Shown piece by piece: positions 37,852 to 46,036 of a stretch of 64,000 nt of DNA. The notes below the pieces were generated by a model. The model was not told where the DNA came from, did no database searches, and was given only the letters and a program-made list of their open reading frames with translations. Source of the stretch: a bacterium (GTDB lineage: Bacteria > Patescibacteriota > UBA1384 > JAGGWG01); NCBI GenBank assembly GCA_021157605.1, contig JAGGWG010000006.1, positions 2,387-66,386 on the forward strand. Direction: 5' to 3'. Numbering within the stretch: the stretch's first letter is position 1; each line of letters begins with the position of its first letter. The position numbers and the translations under genes are program-made.

Positions 37852-38865
37852 TTAAGTTCTTTCATTGTTTCTTTTTTCTATTATATCTAAAACTGCGAAA
37901 AAAATGAGGCAGACTCCAGAGAGAATAACTAAACCAAAAAATTTAATTTGGGTTGAAGCAGGAATAATCAGCAATCCAAAAACAAGCGATATTAGCCAGA
38001 AGAAAAAAGTTGTCTGTTTTTCGCTTAGTCCCAATCTGAGCAGGCGGTGATGGAGGTGGCGCTTGTCTGCCAAAAAGATATTTTTTTTGCCTTTAATCCT
38101 TTGCATTATCACCCATAATCCGTCTAGTATAGGCAGACCCAAAACTAAGAATGAGGTTGCTAATTTGGAGCCGCCCAAGATAGAAGTAAGGGCTAGCATA
38201 AAGCCCAAAAAATTGCTGCCTGAATCACCCATAAAAATTTCTCCTTTAAGAAAATTGTAAGGCAAAAAGGCTAAAAGGATACCGATTAAAATGCTAGCCA
38301 AAAGTACAGCAGGAAAGGCATTTACCCAAGGTAGAAAGGCGGTGTAAATAATAGCTAAGAAGGCAATAATGCTGACTCCGGCAGCTAAACCGTTCAGCCC
38401 GTCCAGCCAATTAAGGATATTGATAAGCAGAACAACCCAAAATATAGTAGCAAGAGCTGAAAACCAAAAATTAAGAGTAATCATGCCCAGCAAAGGGATA
38501 TTAATAACTTCTATTCTAATGCCTAGTGCTACCAACAGCCCGGCGCCAAGCAGTTGTCCCAAAAGTTTAATTTGTGGAGAGAGATTAAAGATATCATCCA
38601 AAAGTCCAACAACAAAGATAATCAAAGCCGGCAGAAAAATTTTTCCCAAAACAGCTAAACTAAGATAAGAAAAGTGAGAAAAAAAGGAAACAGCAAGTAA
38701 AACAAGCCAAAAAGCAGAAAAGAAAATAATTCCTCCTGTGCGGGGAACAGGTTGTCGGTGGATTTTTCGTTTTGCTGGCTGGTCTAAAATCTGAATTCTT
38801 TTTGCCAGCGGGTAGCCCAGCAAAGAGGCAAAGAAGCTGGCAATTGAAGCAAGGATATAAATCAT
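37852..38865 (-). CDS. Glycosyltransferase family 4 polyprenyl-phosphate sugar-phosphate transferase (MraY/WecA family)
   Basis: It is polytopic and has the DDxxD-type motif VGLLDDIFNL and RKIHRQPVPRTGG. Confidence 0.75.
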   Translation of the reverse strand: MIYILASIASFFASLLGYPLAKRIQILDQPAKRKIHRQPVPRTGGIIFFSAFWLVLLAVSFFSHFSYLSLAVLGKIFLPALIIFVVGLLDDIFNLSPQIKLLGQLLGAGLLVALGIRIEVINIPLLGMITLNFWFSALATIFWVVLLINILNWLDGLNGLAAGVSIIAFLAIIYTAFLPWVNAFPAVLLASILIGILLAFLPYNFLKGEIFMGDSGSNFLGFMLALTSILGGSKLATSFLVLGLPILDGLWVIMQRIKGKKNIFLADKRHLHHRLLRLGLSEKQTTFFFWLISLVFGLLIIPASTQIKFFGLVILSGVCLIFFAVLDIIEKRNNERT

Positions 38866-38869
38866 ATTT

Positions 38870-39340
38870 TTAGGATAGATCCTCTTTAGAATAAAGTATA
38901 TTCCAATCTATCCGTTCATAAGGGAAAAGCTCTCTCTTTTTAAAGAAGCGCTCTATCTCTTTTTTGGCTGTTTCAGGTGAGTCTGAGGCGTGGACCACAT
39001 TGTGAGATATTGAGATGGCAAAATCCCCCCTGATTGTGCCCGGAGGTGCTTCAACACCAAAAGTAGGCCCAGTAATTTTTCTCACTACTGAGACCGCTTC
39101 ATTGCCCTCCAAAACTATCAAAATTGTAGGAGAGAGTTTCATAAAATCCACCAAATCTTTGAAAAAGGGCTTGCCGCGATGGTGAGCATAATGTTCGTGC
39201 AATACCTTGTCTTTTAGATGGACCATTTTTAGACCAATGATTTTTAGCCCTTTGCGCTCAAAGCGGTGGATGATTTCGCCAATCAGCCCGCGGTTGACAG
39301 CATCAGGTTTGACAATAACCAGCGTTCGTTCTAAAGCCAT
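38870..39340 (-). CDS. ndk: Nucleoside diphosphate kinase
   Basis: It has ERTLVIVKPDAV and the NVVHASDS active-site region. Confidence 0.9.
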   Translation of the reverse strand: MALERTLVIVKPDAVNRGLIGEIIHRFERKGLKIIGLKMVHLKDKVLHEHYAHHRGKPFFKDLVDFMKLSPTILIVLEGNEAVSVVRKITGPTFGVEAPPGTIRGDFAISISHNVVHASDSPETAKKEIERFFKKRELFPYERIDWNILYSKEDLS

Positions 39341-39343
39341 AAT

Positions 39344-40630
39344 TTATTTTATTTTCTGAATTAATTCTAACAGGCCTTCTTTTTCTTTCAAAGGTCCTAA
39401 AAGAGTAAGAGCTGTGTTTTGGGGTTTAATTAGTTCTCTAAGGACCCTGTCCATGTCTTTTTTGGTGATTGCCTGAGTGGTTCTTTTTATTTCCTCTATG
39501 GATAAAGGACGGTTAAACAGCCTGATGCCTTCTAAGGCAAAATGAGCAATAGTTTGAGGGTTGTCTAAGCTTGTCTCTAGTTCTCCAAGATTGCCTTTTT
39601 TTGCCTCCCTGAGTTTTTGCTCGTCAATACCAGAAGTTTTTAGTTTTTGGAAAATCTTTCCCATTTTCTGGATTGCTTTTTTTGTTTTTTCCGGGGCAAA
39701 GCCGCCAGATACAGAAAGAAGCTGAAAACTTTTAAAGTCAAAACTATGGGCACTAATGTCATAGCTTAGGCCAAGTTTTGTTCTGATTTCAGAGAATAAA
39801 ATCGAATTCAGACCTTGCCCCAAAATTTTTGCCAAAAGTTGTATAGCAATGTTTTCTTTGAGGTTTGCTGGCTTTACTCTTTCAAAAAGCCAAACAAGGT
39901 TAGTCTGCTTAATTTTTTTGTAATGCACAGCAAGGCGTGGTTTTTGGGGAGAGACGTAAGTGGGGATAGAACGTTTCCGCTCTAGCGGCTTTTTGTTGGG
40001 AATAAGTTTTTCTACTTTTTCAGCGAATTTATGTGTCCCGGGGCCAGAAAGAGTTATAACGCAGTTTTGGGGAAGATAGTTGTTTTGCCACCAATTTGTA
40101 AGTTTTTTTTTATCAATGCTTTTGATTGTTTTTTGGTAGCCAATAGTTGGTTGCGAAATTGGATGGTTAGTATTTAAATTTTTATCTGCCAGTTCATCTA
40201 CATAGCTGTCCGGCCTGTCTTTATACATTTTTCTTTCTTCTAAAATTACCTGTTTTTCTTTTTCTATCTCTTCTCTTTTTTTGATTGCTAGGGGATTGAA
40301 GACAACATCAAAAAGCACAGGGAGGGTTTTTTCAGTGTATATTTTTGGGCTAACTAACCAAAAAATAGTGCGTTCAGCGCTGGTAAAGGCGTTGATTATT
40401 CCCCCGTATTTTTCTACCGCAGCTCCTATTGCTTGTTCGTTAGGGTGTTTTTTACTTCCTTTGAAAACCATATGCTCTAAAAAATGGGATATGCCGGCTT
40501 CTTTTTTGTTTTCCAAAAACGATCCCACCCAAAAATTAATGTTTAGAGCCAGAGAATGCAGATGGTTTAATTCAATACTAATGATTTTGGCACCTTTTGT
40601 TTTTTTTAGCCTGAATTTTATTTTAGACAT
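39344..40630 (-). CDS. M16-family (insulinase-like) zinc peptidase
   Basis: It has the inverted zinc motif HFLEHMVFKGS and is 428 aa. Confidence 0.75.
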   Translation of the reverse strand: MSKIKFRLKKTKGAKIISIELNHLHSLALNINFWVGSFLENKKEAGISHFLEHMVFKGSKKHPNEQAIGAAVEKYGGIINAFTSAERTIFWLVSPKIYTEKTLPVLFDVVFNPLAIKKREEIEKEKQVILEERKMYKDRPDSYVDELADKNLNTNHPISQPTIGYQKTIKSIDKKKLTNWWQNNYLPQNCVITLSGPGTHKFAEKVEKLIPNKKPLERKRSIPTYVSPQKPRLAVHYKKIKQTNLVWLFERVKPANLKENIAIQLLAKILGQGLNSILFSEIRTKLGLSYDISAHSFDFKSFQLLSVSGGFAPEKTKKAIQKMGKIFQKLKTSGIDEQKLREAKKGNLGELETSLDNPQTIAHFALEGIRLFNRPLSIEEIKRTTQAITKKDMDRVLRELIKPQNTALTLLGPLKEKEGLLELIQKIK

Positions 40631-41096
40631 AACTAAGAGTTAGTTGTTTGCCTATTTTGAGACTCAAGACAATAAGGACTGCTTGGATTATAAGTCCCAA
40701 AAAAATTAAAAACAAGGATGTGCTTTTTTTAGGATTAAAAAGATAAGCAACTAAGCCTGCTGTATAACTCCCTCCTATGATAGGTATGGGTACAGCAGCA
40801 AGAAGAAAGATTAACCCCAGTCCCAGACGGCGAAAGTTTTTCTCGTGTTTTTGCCGGGTATAGAGAAAAATCTTTTCTTTTATTTTCTTTAAAAAAGGAA
40901 TAAAGTCAATCAGTTTTTCTATTTGCCCCAAAAGCAAAATTGTGATCAACCCCCCCAGCCAAGCACCAATAATGCTGATTGTCATTGCCGCTAAAAGAGG
41001 GAGATTGTATTGAAGTAAAGCCAAAGGGATTGAGCCTCTCATCTCAACTACAGGGGCAAAAGCCAGAAAAAGTATTTTTAGGTATATTGCTAACAT
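40623..41096 (-). CDS. Small membrane protein, putative small multidrug export family (COG2426-like)
   Basis: It has PVVEMRGSIPLAL at the N-terminus and four TM helices. Confidence 0.4.
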   Translation of the reverse strand: MLAIYLKILFLAFAPVVEMRGSIPLALLQYNLPLLAAMTISIIGAWLGGLITILLLGQIEKLIDFIPFLKKIKEKIFLYTRQKHEKNFRRLGLGLIFLLAAVPIPIIGGSYTAGLVAYLFNPKKSTSLFLIFLGLIIQAVLIVLSLKIGKQLTLSYV

Positions 41097-41099
41097 TGG

Positions 41100-41861
41100 T
41101 TAAATTAAAAAATAGATTATTATCCCTGAAGCGACCAAAAAGCGCCAGATAGCGAAGGGCCAAAGGCGGTGATGTTCTAAATAGCGGAGGAGCCAGGCTA
41201 CAACTAAATAGCTAAAGGCAAAGCTGGTTAAAAAGCCTATTAGATAAGGCACAAGAAAAGAGTGGTTTAAGGAAATAATTTTTGGAGCTTCTAAAAGAGT
41301 TGCCCCCAGTATGGCTGGTGTGGCTAAAAGAAAGGAGAACTTGGCTGCTTCTTTTCTTTTTAGACCTAAAAATAGGGCTACAGAAATTGTAATGCCTGAA
41401 CGGGAAACACCCGGGAAAAGGGCCAAAGCTTGGGCTAAACCAATTAGCAAAGCATCTGTTAAAGTAAGCTGTTTTGCTGTTTTTTCTCCGGTTTTTTGGT
41501 CTGCCCAAATCAGAATCAAGCCAAAGAAAATAAGATTAAAGAGAGTCAGACTGGTTATGCGCCAAAACGATGGCTGGGTTTTTTCCAGAACAATACCTAA
41601 AACCGTAGCAGGGATTAAGGCTAAAAAGAGTTTGAAAATTAAGGAAGAAGACAGGGGGCGTTCTTTAAAAAGAGCTGGCCACTTTTTAGCAAAATAAACA
41701 ATTAGAGCTAAAGCAGAACCAAAGTGGATAAAGACATCAAAGCTCAAGTCAAAAGAAAGATGAAATAATTTTTCAGTTAAAAAAAGATGGGCTGAAGAAG
41801 ATATAGGTAGAAACTCAGTTAAAGCTTGGATTAAAGCTAAAATTACTGCCTGAATACCCAT
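41100..41861 (-). CDS. uppP: Undecaprenyl-diphosphatase
   Basis: It has ALTEFLPISSSAHL and SRSGITI, the BacA/UppP motifs. Confidence 0.85.
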   Translation of the reverse strand: MGIQAVILALIQALTEFLPISSSAHLFLTEKLFHLSFDLSFDVFIHFGSALALIVYFAKKWPALFKERPLSSSLIFKLFLALIPATVLGIVLEKTQPSFWRITSLTLFNLIFFGLILIWADQKTGEKTAKQLTLTDALLIGLAQALALFPGVSRSGITISVALFLGLKRKEAAKFSFLLATPAILGATLLEAPKIISLNHSFLVPYLIGFLTSFAFSYLVVAWLLRYLEHHRLWPFAIWRFLVASGIIIYFLI

Positions 41862-41982
41862 TACTTAGATATCATACATTTTTTAAGAGATAAAATTCAA
41901 GTTTCTCTTGATGAAAATAAATTTTTTATTTAGTTTAAAAATCACTTTGACAAGTTAGTGTTTGACGAAGGAGGGGACACAC

Positions 41983-42543
41983 ATGGCGGTTTTGGATCGG
42001 GCTGTGATTGTCGCCGGCAGGAGGATTCTGGCCGGGGACAAGAGGGTACTAATCAACAACCTCGTTATTTTCGAGAAAGGATCAAAGGGGTGGCACTTTG
42101 ACCCCAGCGGCTGGTTGCTTGCTGGGGAGGCAGGGGTGACGTCAGACGAGCTCTGGCACATACTCACCCATCCTCCATTCAATTTTCCTTTAGATTCCTG
42201 CTGGGACAACAAAAAATGCTCGGAGGATAAGTGTTGTAAGATTCCTCCGGGGCTGACAGAAAAAGAGTTCACCTCTTTTTTGGAGGCAGGCTACGATTGG
42301 GACCTTTTTGACTTTAGGACTTACATGGTCCGTCCTAGGAAAGGCGAGGACGGCTACTGCATTTTTCACAATTCAGAAGGAGGTTGCCAGCTCTTTGGCA
42401 GCCCCTTGCGCCCCCAGCAGTGCCGTTGGCGTTACTGCTGGGATGACGTTTTAGACAACGGGCCGGATCTGTCCCGTTACATTTTGAGCTGGTACCCACC
42501 GGCACCCTCAGATAGGGTGCGCCAGCGCTATAATCTAAGGTAA
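41983..42543 (+). CDS. YkgJ/UPF0153-family Cys-rich (CxxCxxCC-type) putative metal-binding protein, encoded in a G+C-rich patch
   Basis: The Cys pattern CWDNKKCSEDKCCK...GYCIFHNSEGGCQLFGSPLRPQQCRWRYC matches the YkgJ consensus C..C..CC ... C.IY..RP..CR..P. The preferred start is the ATG at 41983, which has a GAAGGAGGGG Shine-Dalgarno sequence 7 nt upstream. The track uses a TTG at 41962. Confidence 0.55.
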   Translation: MAVLDRAVIVAGRRILAGDKRVLINNLVIFEKGSKGWHFDPSGWLLAGEAGVTSDELWHILTHPPFNFPLDSCWDNKKCSEDKCCKIPPGLTEKEFTSFLEAGYDWDLFDFRTYMVRPRKGEDGYCIFHNSEGGCQLFGSPLRPQQCRWRYCWDDVLDNGPDLSRYILSWYPPAPSDRVRQRYNLR

Positions 42544-42578
42544 CCAAAGCAAAAGACCCTGCTTATTAGCAGGGTCTT

Positions 42579-43118
42579 TCAGTTTATTGATATTTCTGAT
42601 AAGTGCTCTCCCAAATTAACCACTGTATTAGCTTCTATCTCCAGCCAATAGTTAACAGGAGAGACAGAAGGTTCGGGTGAAGAGGATACATATGGAAATG
42701 GCAGATAAAACTCTGGAATTACTATTTCTACATTTGGATTGATGTTTTTGACCTCTTGAACACTTTCAACAAAATCGCCGTCCCGCGACATAAGAGCCAA
42801 CTTCTCTCCTTTAGACAGGGTTCGCCCCTTTTCTACAATTAGCTCTTTTATTTTTTGATCTACCCACGCATCTTTTTTTTCAAAAATAATAGAGTCCCTA
42901 TCTTTGAGAAAGGTTATAACACGTGGGTCACAAGAGATAGCATAAACAAAGCTCTTGTAAGCTTCACTTATAGGTTCTAAGGAAACATATAAGAACTCAA
43001 ACTTTTTTCCTACCAACAGTTCTGCCACCTTAATTATATCTAAGTTGCAGCCGCAGGTCTCCATTATCTCCCGCCGCCAGTAGTTCCAGTTGGGTCCGTC
43101 CACAATAACAACATTCAC
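42579..43118 (-). CDS. NYN-domain (LabA-like) predicted ribonuclease
   Basis: It has an N-terminal VVIVDGPNW and an MSRDGDFV (SxDxDF-like) motif. Confidence 0.55.
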   Translation of the reverse strand: MNVVIVDGPNWNYWRREIMETCGCNLDIIKVAELLVGKKFEFLYVSLEPISEAYKSFVYAISCDPRVITFLKDRDSIIFEKKDAWVDQKIKELIVEKGRTLSKGEKLALMSRDGDFVESVQEVKNINPNVEIVIPEFYLPFPYVSSSPEPSVSPVNYWLEIEANTVVNLGEHLSEISIN

Positions 43119-43372
43119 TTTTATCTACCGCCTTCTGCCTTGTTTTGAATGTCCTAATGTTGTATCAGTTTTAGCACTTTTTATATTTTTGTCAATGTTT
43201 ATTTAAAAAATAAAAGCAAAAATAAAGCAAAACACTTTAAAAACACAGATGCTTAAACCTAATTTACAAGTTTAAAACTTTTTGCTTTAGCTGTTTGAAA
43301 ATTTTTAAATAGTTTATTTTTTTAGTTTTTGTTTTTTGTTATGCTATTTTTAAAGACAAATTAATTTTTATT
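43119..43372. promoter_or_regulatory. 254-bp AT-rich intergenic spacer, a likely promoter region for the yfiH-like-dnaG-rpoD operon
   Basis: It is the longest non-coding gap in the window and is very AT-rich, with TTGAAA and TATGCT-like hexamers. No ORF or structured RNA was evident. Confidence 0.3.
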
Positions 43373-44245
43373 ATGGCAAGTAAAGAAACAGGGATGATTT
43401 CTGAAAGTTTGACACATGAGCGCGAACGGGAGGAGCGAATAAAAGATGGGGTTTGGCGGCCAAAGATTTTAGCCCCTTTTAGAGAAGTGGTTTGCGGTGC
43501 TTCTACAAAGAGTTTTCCGGGTTTAATTTATCTGCGAAATCCTGATCGTTTTAAGGAGCCTTTAACAGAACCACAAAAAGTAAGGGCAGCCAAGAGTTTG
43601 ATTTCTTTTATCAGAGCTCTTGATCCTGATCTTGATCCTAAAAAAGTTGCTTATCCAGAGCTTAGCCATTCAACTAATATGGTAGTTTTAGATGAACAAA
43701 CAGCAAAAAGACACGTTGAACCAAGAATAAAGATTGAAAATACCGATGGTTTAATTTCTCAGCTTAAAGGCTACACCTTAATGATTTTAGGAGCAGATTG
43801 TCCTTCTATAGCTCTTTTTGATCCTAAAACTCACTCTGTGGGTGTTTTTCACTCAGGTTGGCGGGGAACTGCTCAAGGCATTGTAATTGAAGGGGTAAAG
43901 AAGATGCAGGAAGTTTTTGCTGCTAATTCTAGTGATTTTTACGCCGTAGTAGGTCCGGGCTACAGCCGCAATTATGAAGTTCGCGAAGATGTACTGGAGG
44001 CATTTAGAGCCAGCCAAATTTTTTCAGAAGAAGAGCTGAACCGCTTTTTTGTTCGCAAAGACGAAGAACACTTTAATTTAGATCTTCACCAGGCTTTAGC
44101 TCTTGAGCTCCAAAAAGCAGGTGTCCCTGAAAATCAAACAGAGATAACCTCTTTGCGAACAGATTTAGATAATGATCTTTTTCCTTCTTATCGTTTGGAA
44201 AAAGATCAAGCTGATCGTTTTGCCTTTGCTATTGCTTTAAAATAA
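43373..44245 (+). CDS. YfiH/PgeF (DUF152, laccase-domain) family protein
   Basis: It has GADCPSIALFDPKTHSVGVFHSGWRGTAQGIV and an extra ~60-aa N-terminal region. Confidence 0.7.
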   Translation: MASKETGMISESLTHEREREERIKDGVWRPKILAPFREVVCGASTKSFPGLIYLRNPDRFKEPLTEPQKVRAAKSLISFIRALDPDLDPKKVAYPELSHSTNMVVLDEQTAKRHVEPRIKIENTDGLISQLKGYTLMILGADCPSIALFDPKTHSVGVFHSGWRGTAQGIVIEGVKKMQEVFAANSSDFYAVVGPGYSRNYEVREDVLEAFRASQIFSEEELNRFFVRKDEEHFNLDLHQALALELQKAGVPENQTEITSLRTDLDNDLFPSYRLEKDQADRFAFAIALK

Positions 44246-44284: not shown

Positions 44285-46036
44285 ATGCCAGATCCCTTAG
44301 AGGAGATTAAACAAAAAGTTGATATTGTTGATTTAATCTCTTCTTATATTTCTTTAAAAAAGGCAGGTCGCAACTATAAAGCCCTTTGCCCTTTTCATCA
44401 GGAAAAAACCCCTTCTTTTATGGTTTCCCCGGAAAAACAGATTTGGCACTGTTTTGGTTGTGGTCGCGGAGGTGATGCCATTTCCTTTGTTATGGAAATG
44501 GAGGGTTTGGAGTTTTATGAGGCTTTAAAGTTTTTAGGGGAAAAAGTGGGGGTAAAAGTAGAGCCCCTAAACCAAGAGGCTTATTCAGAGAAAAAGCGCC
44601 TCTATGAGCTAAATGAGATAGCGGCTAAGTTTTTTCAGTATGTTTTATGGAAAACTGCTCCCGGCAAGAAAGCACTGAAGTATTTGCGTGATCGCGGACT
44701 AAAAGATACAACTATTGATGAATTCCACATAGGTTATGCTCCTAATCAAAAAGATGCTTTAAGCAAATTTCTGCTTAAACGTAAATACCCTGTTCCACTT
44801 TTGGTAAAATCAGGTTTAGTTATTAAAAAAGATAATCCGTCTCCAAAAGAAACTCCTATTTTTGATAGGTTTCGCGGTCGCGTAATCTTTCCTGTATTTA
44901 ATCAGGGGGGTTCAATTGTGGGTTTTTCTGGAAGAATTATGCCTCATTTGGAAAGCGACAATTTAGCTAAATATCTTAATTCTCCTGATACCCCTGTGTT
45001 TAATAAAAGTTTTGTTTTGTATGGCTTAAACTTTGCCAAGCAGGCAATTATGAAAAAGGGTTTTGTTGTTTTAGTAGAGGGACAGATGGATGTTATCTCT
45101 GCTCATCAAGCAGGCTTTTTAAACACAGTGGCTTCTTCTGGCACTTCCTTAACTGAACCTCAGCTTGATTTGCTCCGCCGATTTACTAATAAGATATATT
45201 TTGCCTTTGATCAAGATTCAGCTGGGCAAGTTGCTACTGAAAGGGGGATTGAGTTAGCTCTTAAGAAAGGTTTTTTGGTATATGTAGTGTTTATTCCTAA
45301 GCCGTATAAAGATGTAGATGAGTGCGTAAAGTCTAACCCTAAAAAATGGGAGGAAGCCTTATCTAAAAAGCGCAGTATTATTGAATACTTTTTTCAGATT
45401 TATGCCAAAGGGGCCAAGACTATTGAGCAGCGCAAAGAAGCAGCAGAAAAAGTTTTGCTTTGGATTAAAGTGATCCCTGACCCGATCTTACAGGGAGAGT
45501 GGATGCAAAAGCTGAGTTCTGCTCTTGATATTGGAGAACCCTATCTTTATGAGGCTTTACAGAATCTCTCTAAAGATAAAGTTAAAACTCAACCAGTCGG
45601 GGGAGACAAAGCTAAATCTTCTTTTGGCAAAGAGGAAGTAAAAAAACGAATTGTGGCTTTTTTGTTTGTTTTTCCTTCATTCTATAAAAGATCAAAATCT
45701 AAACTAAATAGACTTTTGAAGCAAAACAAACTTTACAATCTTTGGTTTAAATTCTACAATCAGAAAGATAGAGTTAAAGATAGTTTTTTGGCTCGTCTTA
45801 AAAGCCCAGAGTTGCCTTTAGCAGTACTGGAAGTGGAGAATGATTATGATCAGGGTGACAAAAAGTTGGCTTGGCAGGAATTTAATGATTTAGTGCAGTT
45901 TTTATACAGAGAAGCAAAAGAGATGCAGATTGCTAAGCTTCAGCGTCAGATTAAAATCTGTGAGAAGAAAAAAGATTCCCTTCATCTTAAAAAACTTCTT
46001 AGAAAATTGCAAGATTTAATTATGGATAAACAATAA
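44285..46036 (+). CDS. dnaG: DNA primase
   Basis: It has the CHC2 zinc finger [30 protein letters not shown] and a TOPRIM domain ([12 protein letters not shown]). Confidence 0.9.

What the first reader, a model, noticed from the sequence alone, without database searches (positions are those of the whole stretch)
41947..43372. Compositionally foreign ~1.2 kb insert: G+C-rich YkgJ-family gene plus NYN-domain gene, then a 254-bp AT-rich spacer
The plus-strand YkgJ-type Cys-rich gene (41983-42543) is visibly far more G+C-rich than its flanks, roughly 50% by eye against mid-30s. It has a strong GGAGG Shine-Dalgarno sequence and a TTGACA hexamer. The convergent NYN-domain gene is also somewhat G+C-enriched. 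The block interrupts an otherwise housekeeping run between uppP and yfiH-dnaG-rpoD. This pattern suggests recent horizontal acquisition. YkgJ-like Fe/Zn proteins and NYN RNases are both poorly characterised.
Basis: partly seen in the sequence, partly recalled or inferred. Interest (0 to 1): 0.5.

Follow-up and report, generated by a model that had tools for sequence, protein, structure and literature searches.

The report
G+C-rich resident YkgJ-like gene
The G+C-rich spike is real, but it is one small cysteine-rich metal-binding protein gene that has sat next to uppP throughout this Patescibacteria-like lineage, so it is an old resident with odd composition and a recombined allele, not a recently acquired two-gene insert.

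Summary
The spike is real for ORF1 only (41983-42543, +): 52.8% G+C against 38.1% for the window, and GC3 0.62 against 0.35±0.05 in 49 ORFs. ORF2 (42579-43118, -) and the 254-bp spacer are compositionally ordinary.

ORF1 is a real gene (dN/dS 0.17; all indels in multiples of 3). It belongs to a very rare family, with 9 true representatives among 1.84 billion proteins. It links to Pfam PF03692 (CxxCxxCC/YkgJ) only through other family members.

A homolog lies divergently beside uppP in all ten lineages examined, down to about 30% identity. No phage or plasmid relatives were found. Recent horizontal acquisition is therefore not supported.

About 60% of the G+C excess is synonymous. It recurs in six of ten lineages.

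Against a strain about 97% identical, a tract of about 0.4 kb inside the CDS is about 18% diverged (dS 0.58; neighbours 0.01-0.14). Replacement by a related allele explains this best.

The NYN label for ORF2 is unproven. ORF2 sits in a variable slot that holds tRNA-Ser or a restriction-modification system in relatives.

The cause of the G+C excess is unresolved. Interest is modest.

The parts
41100..41861 (-). uppP (BacA, undecaprenyl-diphosphate phosphatase). It is the conserved divergent neighbour of ORF1.
   Evidence: PF02673 at E 1.7e-72. It is adjacent to an ORF1 homolog in all ten lineages examined.
41862..41982 (.). AT-rich (26% G+C) divergent intergenic region between uppP and ORF1. 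It holds a conserved TTGACA (41947-41952) and the Shine-Dalgarno sequence AAGGAGGGG (41968-41976).
   Evidence: Sequence and G+C. The hexamer and the Shine-Dalgarno sequence are invariant in W, L001 and L003. The scan reported only a minus-strand promoter-like site (41900->41871) and no complete plus-strand promoter.
41983..42543 (+). ORF1: a 186-aa Cys/Trp-rich protein of a clade-specific subfamily of the CxxCxxCC (YkgJ/FliB-type) superfamily. This is the whole G+C-rich block.
   Evidence: G+C 52.8% and GC3 0.62. dN/dS is 0.17 and indels are in multiples of 3. The family has 9 true representatives. P0013 hits PF03692 at 28.9 bits against a cutoff of 23. hhalign gives 99.7% between the window subgroup and the PF03692-positive subgroup. 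The AF2 model has pLDDT 84.
42199..42438 (+). CxxCxxCC-like domain (residues 73-152). The first Cys cluster is C73-X5-C79-X4-C84-C85. The second comprises C126, C135, C147 and C152.
   Evidence: Seven Cys are invariant across 11 family members. The PF03692 match in P0013 spans the equivalent residues 85-162. The alignment is shown.
42040..42447 (+). High-divergence tract between the window and strain L001. It is about 18% diverged, against about 3% in 10 kb of flanks. It is the probable homologous-recombination tract.
   Evidence: Sliding identity. Per-60-nt difference counts and site patterns. ORF1 dS is 0.58 against 0.01-0.14 in nine neighbouring genes. The first 57 nt of the CDS carry only 1 difference.
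42552..42579 (.). Perfect 12-bp stem with a 4-nt loop and T-runs on both sides. It is a bidirectional intrinsic terminator shared by the convergent ORF1 and ORF2.
   Evidence: Terminator scan on both strands and inverted repeat I11. Conserved in L001 and L003. The weak Rfam BSnc120 hit is only this hairpin.
42579..43118 (-). ORF2: a 179-aa fast-evolving protein with background composition, possibly an NYN/PIN-like nuclease. It occupies a variable slot.
   Evidence: G+C 39.3%. Only sub-threshold NYN hits (Pfam E 0.17, PADLOC E 0.038), both on residues 100-134. A homolog lies at the same position in L008 (33% identity, E 7e-31). Absent in L002/L003 and L012. The invariant motifs are VDGPNW, WVDxK and SRDGD.
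43119..43372 (.). 254-bp AT-rich (21.7% G+C) divergent intergenic region between ORF2 and yfiH.
   Evidence: It falls within the range of other divergent gaps in the window, 20-31%. It contains an imperfect AT-rich inverted repeat at 43223-43241 / 43271-43289.
43373..44245 (+). yfiH-type gene (Cu-oxidase_4), which starts the yfiH-dnaG-rpoD run.
   Evidence: PF02578 at E 1.1e-42. It is 74% identical to the L002 ortholog, which directly follows ORF1 there.

Best explanation
The G+C-rich block is one monocistronic gene, ORF1. It has its own Shine-Dalgarno sequence and ends at a bidirectional terminator.

Protein (inferred). ORF1 encodes a small cytoplasmic cysteine-rich metalloprotein of a clade-specific, divergent branch of the CxxCxxCC (YkgJ/FliB) superfamily. 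By analogy with FliB, the CX5CX4CC motif plus four further invariant cysteines most likely hold a [4Fe-4S] cluster, with Zn as the alternative. The substrate is unknown.

Residency (shown). The gene is an ancient, vertically inherited resident. It is the fixed divergent partner of uppP across a small Patescibacteria-like lineage. It is not a recent insertion.

Composition (shown). The odd composition is gene-specific. About 40% of the excess follows from amino-acid content and about 60% from G/C-ending synonymous codons. The excess is shared with sister lineages and recurs in other branches of the clade.

Cause of the excess (inferred). ORF1 alleles are exchanged by short-tract homologous recombination among related lineages. 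One such replacement, of about 0.4 kb, separates the window from a strain about 97% identical. A fixation bias towards G/C keeps GC3 high in this gene. That bias could be recombination-associated biased gene conversion or selection on synonymous sites.

ORF2 and the spacer (shown, except the NYN fold). ORF2 is a separate, fast-evolving, possibly NYN-like gene. It sits in a variable slot between ORF1 and yfiH. In other lineages that slot holds tRNA-Ser(GCT), a type I restriction-modification system or other genes.
For: Real coding gene:
- dN/dS is 0.17, 47 of 79 differences fall at third codon positions, and all indels are multiples of 3.

Family:
- The exhaustive profile search found 11 hits, 2 of them spurious repeat proteins.
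- Seven Cys are invariant.
- P0013 passes the PF03692 threshold, and three other members score 17.6-22.4 bits.
- hhalign gives 99.7%, E 8e-26.
- FliB binds a [4Fe-4S] cluster through CX4CX3CC and has 8 conserved Cys (PMC8598068).

Residency:
- The uppP<>ORF1 pairing is present in all ten lineages.
- The UppP clade is isolated, at >=57% identity followed by a drop to 46%.
- There are no phage or plasmid homologs and no flanking repeats.

Composition:
- The same protein encoded with the window's codon usage would have 44.1% G+C and GC3 0.366. The observed values are 53% and 0.62, z = 7.8.
- The GC3 excess is +0.29 in W, +0.28 in L001, +0.13 to +0.17 in L002/L003, +0.16 in L012, +0.13 in L096, +0.06 in L008, and about 0 in L009, L010, L013 and L014.

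Allele replacement:
- Flanks are about 97% identical, but the CDS is 64-84% identical.
- ORF1 dS is 0.58 and dN 0.097. The nine neighbours have dS 0.01-0.14 and dN 0.004-0.028, and ORF1's dN/dS is similar to uppP's.
- The tract boundary lies inside the CDS: 1 difference in the first 57 nt, then 13 in the next 57.
- None of the 14 within-population SNPs falls in ORF1.
- Third-position changes polarised with L003 are 18 GC>AT against 12 AT>GC. About 3.3:1 would be expected if ORF1 were decaying under the flanks' mutation bias.

Variable slot.
Against: - Metal binding and any catalytic activity are pure inference.
- The donor lineage of the divergent allele is unsampled. Only one close strain pair was available, because L002 and L003 are identical.
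- The polarised counts are small, and the outgroup is saturated (W-L003 dS > 4).
- No direct measurement of recombination or of biased gene conversion was possible.
- Three AT-rich lineages (L010, L013, L014) show no G+C excess, so any G/C-favouring force is not universal.
Confidence: 0.6

Rival explanations
1. One reading: a recently acquired foreign insert of about 1.2 kb carrying both ORF1 and ORF2.
For: The G+C and GC3 spike of ORF1 is strong. ORF2 is absent in some relatives.
Against: - ORF1 is syntenic beside uppP in all ten lineages, down to about 30% identity.
- ORF1 is also G+C-rich in the sister lineages.
- ORF2 has background composition.
- ORF2's divergence from L001 is at background level, dS 0.085, so it did not travel with the ORF1 allele.
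- The family is confined to this clade.
- There are no mobile-element homologs, integrase or flanking repeats.
Confidence: 0.03
2. Older xenologous displacement. In the ancestor of the W/L001/L003 group, and separately in L012 and L096, the resident ORF1 was replaced in place by a homolog from a G+C-richer member of the same clade. The gene has not yet fully drifted to the host's composition.
For: - All three codon positions are G+C-shifted, as expected after long residence in a genome of about 50-55% G+C.
- ORF1 distances are not proportional to flank distances. W-L003 is 72% and W-L008 is 47%, although the flanks place L003 and L008 about equally far from W.
- G+C-richer clade members exist, such as L008 and L009 at 43-47%.
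- GC3 is lower in L003 (0.49) than in W (0.62), which could be partial decay.
Against: - No sampled clade member has the required ORF1 G+C or GC3; the highest outside the W group is 0.50.
- W-L003 dS is saturated, so neutral decay should be largely complete.
- Polarised changes show no strong GC>AT excess.
- The G+C-rich tract ends exactly at the CDS, with AT-rich flanks of 26% and 22%.
Confidence: 0.2
3. Selection on synonymous sites of ORF1. G/C-ending and rare codons such as AGG and GGG, and/or a stable mRNA, would be favoured to tune translation speed or mRNA half-life for a cofactor-loaded protein. No unusual recombination would be needed to explain the composition.
For: - The excess is mostly synonymous and confined to the CDS.
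- Codon use is skewed: AGG 7 to AGA 0, CAG 4 to CAA 0, GAG 7 to GAA 2, TAC 6 to TAT 1.
- The native mRNA folds more stably than synonymous-codon shuffles in three orthologs, z = -3.1 to -3.4.
- The excess recurs in several lineages.
Against: - Control genes also give negative z (-0.25 to -1.95), and ORF2 gives -3.2.
- The shift covers both G- and C-ending codons in general and does not favour a specific codon set.
- It does not explain the five-fold dS excess against L001.
- It is absent in three lineages.
Confidence: 0.15
4. The G+C-rich segment is, or overlaps, a structured non-coding RNA or another nucleotide-level element, and the ORF is incidental or dual-function.
For: - G+C-rich islands in AT-rich genomes are often structured RNAs.
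- The folding z-score is strongly negative.
- A perfect 9-bp hairpin lies at 42414-42443.
- RNAalifold predicts 14 compensatory pairs, against about 5 in shuffles.
Against: - There is no Rfam match.
- The coding signature is clear, and there is a conserved protein family with invariant Cys.
- The same alifold pipeline gives 6-14 compensatory pairs on ordinary neighbouring genes.
- The hairpin is absent in distant orthologs and follows from the QQC...YCW codons.
Confidence: 0.03

Closest known systems
Pfam PF03692 CxxCxxCC ('putative zinc- or iron-chelating domain'; E. coli YkgJ, formerly UPF0153)
   Same: ORF1 is a small protein with two cysteine clusters: an N-terminal C..C..CC cluster, then G-x-C-x-F ... 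C ... RP-x-x-C ... C. Family member P0013 carries the canonical CX2CX2CC and passes the Pfam threshold. Profile-profile homology to the window subgroup is 99.7%.
   Different: - The window protein is not detected by the Pfam model.
- The first cluster is expanded to CX5CX4CC.
- There is an extra N-terminal beta-rich segment of about 70 residues and a C-terminal helical tail.
- The family is confined to one small clade and always lies beside uppP.
FliB, flagellin lysine-N-methyltransferase of Salmonella (PMC8598068)
   Same: FliB's cysteine-rich motif is of the same type, CX4CX3CC, and was shown to bind one oxygen-sensitive [4Fe-4S] cluster. FliB has eight conserved cysteines in all. ORF1 has eight Cys, seven of them invariant in the family.
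   Different: From my own knowledge, FliB is about twice as long and acts on flagellin. No direct sequence match between ORF1 and FliB was tested here. SAM dependence or methyl transfer by ORF1 is speculation.
DpdM, candidate preQ1 methyltransferase of phages (DUF3109; described as homologous to YkgJ; bioRxiv 10.1101/2023.04.13.536721)
   Same: It is another case where a YkgJ-related metal-binding protein is proposed to be a methyltransferase.
   Different: DpdM is phage-encoded and lies in a 7-deazaguanine pathway context. ORF1 has no phage homologs and no such neighbours.
NYN / LabA-like PIN-fold nucleases (PF01936), for ORF2
   Same: Two independent NYN models align to the SRDGDF segment. 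Invariant acidic residues in VDGPNW, WVDxK and SRDGD resemble the NYN metal-binding motifs. That comparison rests on my own knowledge of the family.
   Different: The scores are far below threshold (12.8 bits against 24.2). A profile search against PDB sequences found nothing. The fold was not modelled.
Housekeeping genes beside variable loci that show excess diversity through recombination (for example gnd next to the E. coli O-antigen cluster), and the link between recombination and raised GC3 in bacteria (Lassalle et al. 2015). Both are recalled from my own knowledge.
   Same: A conserved gene bordering a variable slot shows locally raised divergence at synonymous and non-synonymous sites alike, together with raised GC3.
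   Different: The adjacent slot gene, ORF2, was not co-replaced; its dS is 0.085. Biased gene conversion was not measured here.

Membership tests
PF03692 CxxCxxCC / YkgJ superfamily (ORF1) | The protein itself matches the Pfam model at or above the gathering score. | tested here: not met
   No family at E<=10 for window:41983-42540.
PF03692 CxxCxxCC / YkgJ superfamily (ORF1) | Significant homology to proteins that do meet the Pfam threshold (transitive membership). | tested here: met
   The profile of the window group finds P0013 at E 3e-9. P0013 scores 28.9 bits against a cutoff of 23, and three more members score 17.6-22.4 bits. hhalign gives 99.7%, E 8e-26, over 151 columns.
PF03692 CxxCxxCC / YkgJ superfamily (ORF1) | An N-terminal C-x2-C-x2-CC cluster. 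| tested here: inconclusive
   The window protein has C73-X5-C79-X4-C84C85. Family spacing ranges from the canonical CX2CX2CC in P0013 to CX7CX4CC in P0008. FliB's functional motif is CX4CX3CC. The CC pair and the first Cys are invariant, and C79 is present in most members.
PF03692 CxxCxxCC / YkgJ superfamily (ORF1) | A second, C-terminal cysteine group (G-x-C-x-F ... C ... RP-x-x-C ... C). | tested here: met
   C126, F128, C135, C147 and C152 are invariant, and P144 is nearly invariant, in 11 sequences.
PF03692 CxxCxxCC / YkgJ superfamily (ORF1) | Binds Fe-S or Zn. | not testable with these tools
   This needs purified protein with UV-vis, EPR or metal analysis, as was done for FliB (PMC8598068).
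NYN domain nuclease, PF01936 (ORF2) | Model match at or above the gathering score. | tested here: not met
   Pfam NYN gives E 0.17 and 12.8 bits against 24.2. The L001 ortholog gives E 0.095. PADLOC NYN gives E 0.038. All hits cover only residues 100-134.
NYN domain nuclease, PF01936 (ORF2) | Conserved acidic catalytic residues on a PIN-like fold. | tested here: inconclusive
   D7, D87, D113 and D115 are invariant between the window protein and the 33%-identical L008 homolog. The PDB profile search found nothing.
Recently acquired genomic islet (horizontal transfer) | Compositional deviation from the host. | tested here: met
   Met for ORF1 only. Not met for ORF2 or the spacer.
Recently acquired genomic islet (horizontal transfer) | Absent from close relatives at the same site. 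| tested here: not met
   An ORF1 homolog lies next to uppP in all ten lineages examined. Only ORF2 is variably present.
Recently acquired genomic islet (horizontal transfer) | The nearest homologs lie in foreign taxa or on mobile elements. | tested here: not met
   All true homologs whose genomic context was examined lie in the same UppP-defined clade. Nothing was found in phage or plasmid collections.
Recently acquired genomic islet (horizontal transfer) | Insertion scars or mobility genes (flanking direct repeats, an integrase, a tRNA target). | tested here: not met
   Only chance-level repeats of 12-13 nt were found. The window has no tRNA. No mobility gene was identified in the block: neither ORF matched a family above threshold in Pfam or NCBIfam. 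A tRNA-Ser(GCT) does lie in the equivalent slot in L009, L012 and L013.

The most novel reading that the evidence does not exclude
ORF1 marks a gene-sized recombination hotspot in an episymbiont-type (Patescibacteria) genome. Repeated short-tract allele exchange between related lineages, coupled with G/C-biased fixation, holds one gene at GC3 of about 0.6 inside a genome at GC3 of about 0.33. The protein would be a new clade-specific [4Fe-4S] enzyme of the FliB/YkgJ type whose fixed pairing with uppP reflects a role in the undecaprenyl-phosphate or cell-envelope cycle.
Probability: 0.15. Interest if true: 0.55.

Novelty: new member of a known kind. Interest (0 to 1): 0.3.

Why it matters
The main value is as a caution. 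A z = 5 G+C spike with foreign-looking codon usage would be called a horizontally acquired islet by any compositional method. Synteny across ten lineages shows instead that the gene is an old resident.

If the recombination and G/C-bias reading holds, the locus would be a compact natural example of gene-specific compositional evolution in a reduced, AT-rich genome.

The finding also defines a very rare, clade-restricted branch of the poorly understood YkgJ/FliB cysteine-rich superfamily, with 9 representatives among 1.84 billion clusters. Its conserved partner, uppP, gives a concrete place to look for the function of that branch.

Tried and rejected
- Structured RNA. Rfam gave nothing in the region, the window or the relatives. 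The folding z-score and the alifold covariation were no better than in control genes. The CDS hairpin is not conserved.
- Diversity-generating or A-directed mutagenesis. The W-L001 substitution spectrum is symmetric and dominated by transitions, with no adenine bias. No copy of ORF1 exists elsewhere in the window.
- Ongoing hypermutation. None of 14 within-population SNPs lies in ORF1, and the low-divergence 5' end of the CDS argues against a gene-wide rate increase.
- Positive selection as the cause of the divergence. dN/dS is 0.17, the same as for uppP.
- External donor pool. Phages and plasmids gave nothing. The viral-contig scan could not be run with the family alignment.
- Collection scans for ORF1. 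The genome and metagenome contig scans found nothing. The UppP-profile scan of species-representative genomes returned only distant phyla, with a best identity of 44%, so the lineage could not be named more precisely than one 'Patescibacteria group' label.
- Sequence searches for solved or annotated relatives. PDB searches for ORF1 and ORF2 found nothing. NCBIfam, PHROGs and PADLOC gave nothing significant.
- L002 against L003 as a second close pair. They are identical, so the pair is uninformative.
- P0007 and P0015 from the exhaustive search. They are FN3- and WD40-repeat proteins matched by summed short repeats, and are not homologs.
Full report
OBSERVATION

The compositional spike is real and extreme, but it is confined to one gene.
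- ORF1 (41983-42543, +, 186 aa) has 52.8% G+C against 38.1% for the window. The best 560-nt sliding window has z = 5.2 and the runner-up has 46.1%.
- ORF1 GC3 is 0.62. The mean over 49 non-overlapping ORFs is 0.346±0.053, and the next highest is 0.43.
- GGAGG (41970-41974) and TTGACA (41947-41952) are present and conserved in relatives. The consensus scan did not report a full promoter on the + strand.
- ORF2 (42579-43118, -) has 39.3% G+C and GC3 0.385, so it is not enriched.
- The 254-bp spacer has 21.7% G+C. That lies within the 20-31% range of the other divergent intergenic gaps in the window.
- A perfect 12-bp hairpin at 42552-42579 is a bidirectional terminator between the convergent ORFs. 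The only Rfam 'hit' in the region is this hairpin.

IS ORF1 A GENE OR AN RNA?

A G+C island in an AT-rich genome could be a structured RNA, so I tested both readings.

The evidence favours a protein-coding gene:
- Rfam finds nothing.
- Orthologs differ mainly at third codon positions (47 of 79 differences), dN/dS is 0.17, and every indel is a multiple of 3.

The evidence for an RNA structure does not survive controls:
- The native sequence folds more stably than synonymous-codon shuffles (z = -3.1 to -3.4 in three orthologs). Ordinary neighbouring genes give -0.25 to -1.95, and ORF2 gives -3.2.
- RNAalifold predicts 14 compensatory pairs. The same pipeline gives 6-14 on control genes.
- A perfect 9-bp hairpin inside the CDS follows from the QQC...YCW codons and is absent in distant orthologs.

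ORF1 is therefore a protein-coding gene. A conserved RNA structure is not supported.

WHAT PROTEIN?

- ORF1 hits nothing in Pfam or NCBIfam, even at E<=10.
- The k-mer-indexed search found only four clusters.
- The exhaustive HMM search of 1.84 billion representatives found 11 proteins. Two of them are FN3- and WD40-repeat proteins matched by summed short repeats, and they are not homologs.
- The nine true members are 177-217 aa long. They share seven invariant cysteines (C73, C84, C85, C126, C135, C147 and C152 in window numbering) plus F39, P41, P89, E95 and F128.
- One member, P0013, carries the canonical CX2CX2CC and passes the PF03692 (CxxCxxCC) gathering score with 28.9 bits against 23. 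Three more members score 17.6-22.4 bits.
- A profile-profile comparison links the window subgroup to those members at 99.7% probability, E 8e-26.

The window protein itself is too divergent for the Pfam model. It has CX5CX4CC, an N-terminal beta-rich segment and a C-terminal helical tail.

Two relatives have been studied. FliB binds a [4Fe-4S] cluster through CX4CX3CC and has eight conserved cysteines (PMC8598068). The phage protein DpdM is a YkgJ-homologous candidate preQ1 methyltransferase. The best functional inference for ORF1 is therefore a small Fe-S (or Zn) protein, possibly an enzyme of that type. This is inference only.

IS IT FOREIGN?

The evidence says it is not recently foreign.
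- Every family member whose context I could read lies divergently next to uppP. These are L001 (85% identity to the window protein), L002/L003 (72%), L008 (47%), and L009, L010, L012, L013, L014 and L096 (about 30%) (identities).
- The block dnaE-...-GT4-ndk-M16-VTT/Sm_multidrug_ex-uppP | ORF1 is shared across these loci.
- UppP homologs show a small isolated clade at >=57% identity and then a drop to 46%. One member is labelled 'Patescibacteria group bacterium'.
- ORF1's distribution coincides with that clade.
- There are no phage or plasmid homologs and no flanking repeats.

WHAT VARIES IS THE SLOT AFTER ORF1

- In L002/L003 and L012, ORF1 is followed directly by yfiH-dnaG-rpoD. In L012 a tRNA-Ser(GCT) lies between ORF1 and yfiH.
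- L009 and L013 also carry tRNA-Ser(GCT) in the slot.
- L008 carries an ORF2 homolog, another ORF and a type I restriction-modification system.
- L013 carries bipA, a PPIase and others.

ORF2 has one near-identical cluster and a 33%-identical homolog in L008 at the same convergent position (E 7e-31). Its NYN assignment rests on two sub-threshold hits to the same 30 residues (Pfam E 0.17, PADLOC E 0.038) and on the invariant motifs VDGPNW, WVDxK and SRDGD. The assignment is plausible but unproven.

WHY IS ORF1 G+C-RICH?

- The same protein encoded with the window's codon usage would have 44.1% G+C and GC3 0.366. So about 40% of the excess comes from amino-acid content (Cys, Trp, Gly, Arg, Pro) and about 60% is synonymous, z = 7.8.
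- The shift covers both G- and C-ending codons in general.
- The excess is not a family constant. The GC3 excess over the flanks is +0.29 in W, +0.28 in L001, +0.13 to +0.17 in L002/L003, +0.16 in L012, +0.13 in L096, +0.06 in L008, and about 0 in L009, L010, L013 and L014. It is never clearly negative.
- In L008 the G+C-rich zone extends over the ORF2 homolog, at 52% against 43%.

A SECOND ANOMALY

- L001 is a strain about 97% identical to the window over 10 kb. Identity falls to 64-84% inside the ORF1 CDS and returns to 98% in ORF2.
- ORF1 has dS 0.58 and dN 0.097. The nine neighbouring genes have dS 0.01-0.14 and dN 0.004-0.028. ORF1's dN/dS equals that of uppP.
- The excess is therefore not due to positive selection.
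- It is not gene-wide either. The first 57 nt of the CDS carry one difference and the next 57 carry 13, although that 5' segment is free to vary against L003 (15 differences in 60 nt).
- None of the 14 SNPs between the window and the near-identical contig L004 lies in ORF1.
- ORF1 distances are not proportional to flank distances. ORF1 is 85%, 72% and 47% identical for W against L001, L003 and L008. UppP is 95%, 76% and 73%, and M16 is 97%, 63% and 60%.

The simplest reading is that a tract of about 0.4 kb (about 42040-42447) was replaced by a homologous allele from a related, unsampled lineage whose ORF1 is equally G+C-rich.

Third-position changes polarised with L003 are 18 GC>AT against 12 AT>GC. 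About 3.3:1 would be expected if the gene were decaying under the flanks' mutational bias. The counts are small and the outgroup is saturated. Even so, this does not look like an un-ameliorated recent import.

VERDICT

ORF1 is an old, clade-specific, fast-evolving YkgJ/FliB-type cysteine-rich gene permanently paired with uppP. Its foreign-looking composition is a gene-specific state that is shared with relatives and recurs across the clade.

I favour recombination between related lineages combined with a G/C-favouring fixation bias as the cause. Older in-place displacement from a G+C-richer clade member, and selection on synonymous sites, remain live alternatives.

The residency and family conclusions are strong. 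The cause of the G+C excess is unresolved. ORF2 and the spacer are compositionally ordinary and belong to a variable slot, which is tRNA-associated in relatives. Interest is modest, and the main lesson is that a very strong compositional signal here does not indicate recent horizontal transfer.

Noticed in passing
L009:2638-2726, L012:5132-5222, L013:1340-1429: A tRNA-Ser(GCT) lies in the slot between ORF1 and yfiH in three distant clade members. The 64-kb window has no tRNA gene at all. The tRNA may explain why this slot accumulates different cargo in different lineages.
   Followed up: partly
L008:10222-16576: A type I restriction-modification system (hsdM, hsdS, hsdR and small ORFs) occupies the slot downstream of ORF1 and the ORF2 homolog in this relative.
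   Followed up: no
L098 (983-nt contig) against window 42313-42444: A population variant of ORF1 (P0003, 138 aa) has a 144-nt in-frame deletion between imperfect 12-nt direct repeats (GACCTTTTTGAC / GACGTTTTAGAC). The deletion removes the whole second cysteine cluster. It could be a slippage allele or an assembly artefact.
   Followed up: partly
L001:10019-10528 against window 42448-42495: The L001 allele of ORF1 lacks 16 codons (DVLDNGPDLSRYILSW, a predicted C-terminal helix) and has three single-codon indels, yet remains in frame.
   Followed up: partly
window 42414-42443: A perfect 9-bp inverted repeat (CCCAGCAGT-N12-ACTGCTGGG) lies inside the CDS and encodes PQQCRWRYCW. It is kept in L003, carries one mismatch in L001, and is absent in distant orthologs.
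   Followed up: yes
L008:7771-7878 (-): A 35-aa hydrophobic small ORF with 56% G+C and its own G+C-rich terminator-like hairpin sits in the uppP-ORF1 intergenic region of L008. L009 has a 47-aa ORF in the equivalent place. The window has nothing comparable.
   Followed up: no
window 45823-45835 and 45983-45984 (3' part of dnaG): Six of the 14 SNPs between the window and the near-identical contig L004 cluster in two short patches near the end of dnaG. This may be a small recombination patch or a variable C-terminal region.
   Followed up: no
window 37852-41861 and the same block in relatives: The conserved block next to ORF1 (a GT4 MraY/WecA-like transferase, ndk, an M16 peptidase, a VTT/Sm_multidrug_ex membrane protein and UppP) looks like a lipid-carrier and envelope module. 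From my own knowledge, VTT/DedA-type proteins have been implicated in undecaprenyl-phosphate recycling.
   Followed up: no
window 43223-43241 / 43271-43289: An imperfect AT-rich inverted repeat (19 nt, 84% complementary, 29 nt apart) lies in the ORF2-yfiH spacer.
   Followed up: no
P0007 and P0015: Two long repeat proteins (FN3-type at 4212 aa and WD40-type at 1022 aa) reached E<1e-5 in the exhaustive profile search only by summing many weak matches to short ORF1 segments. They are false positives and need excluding when this family is counted.
   Followed up: yes
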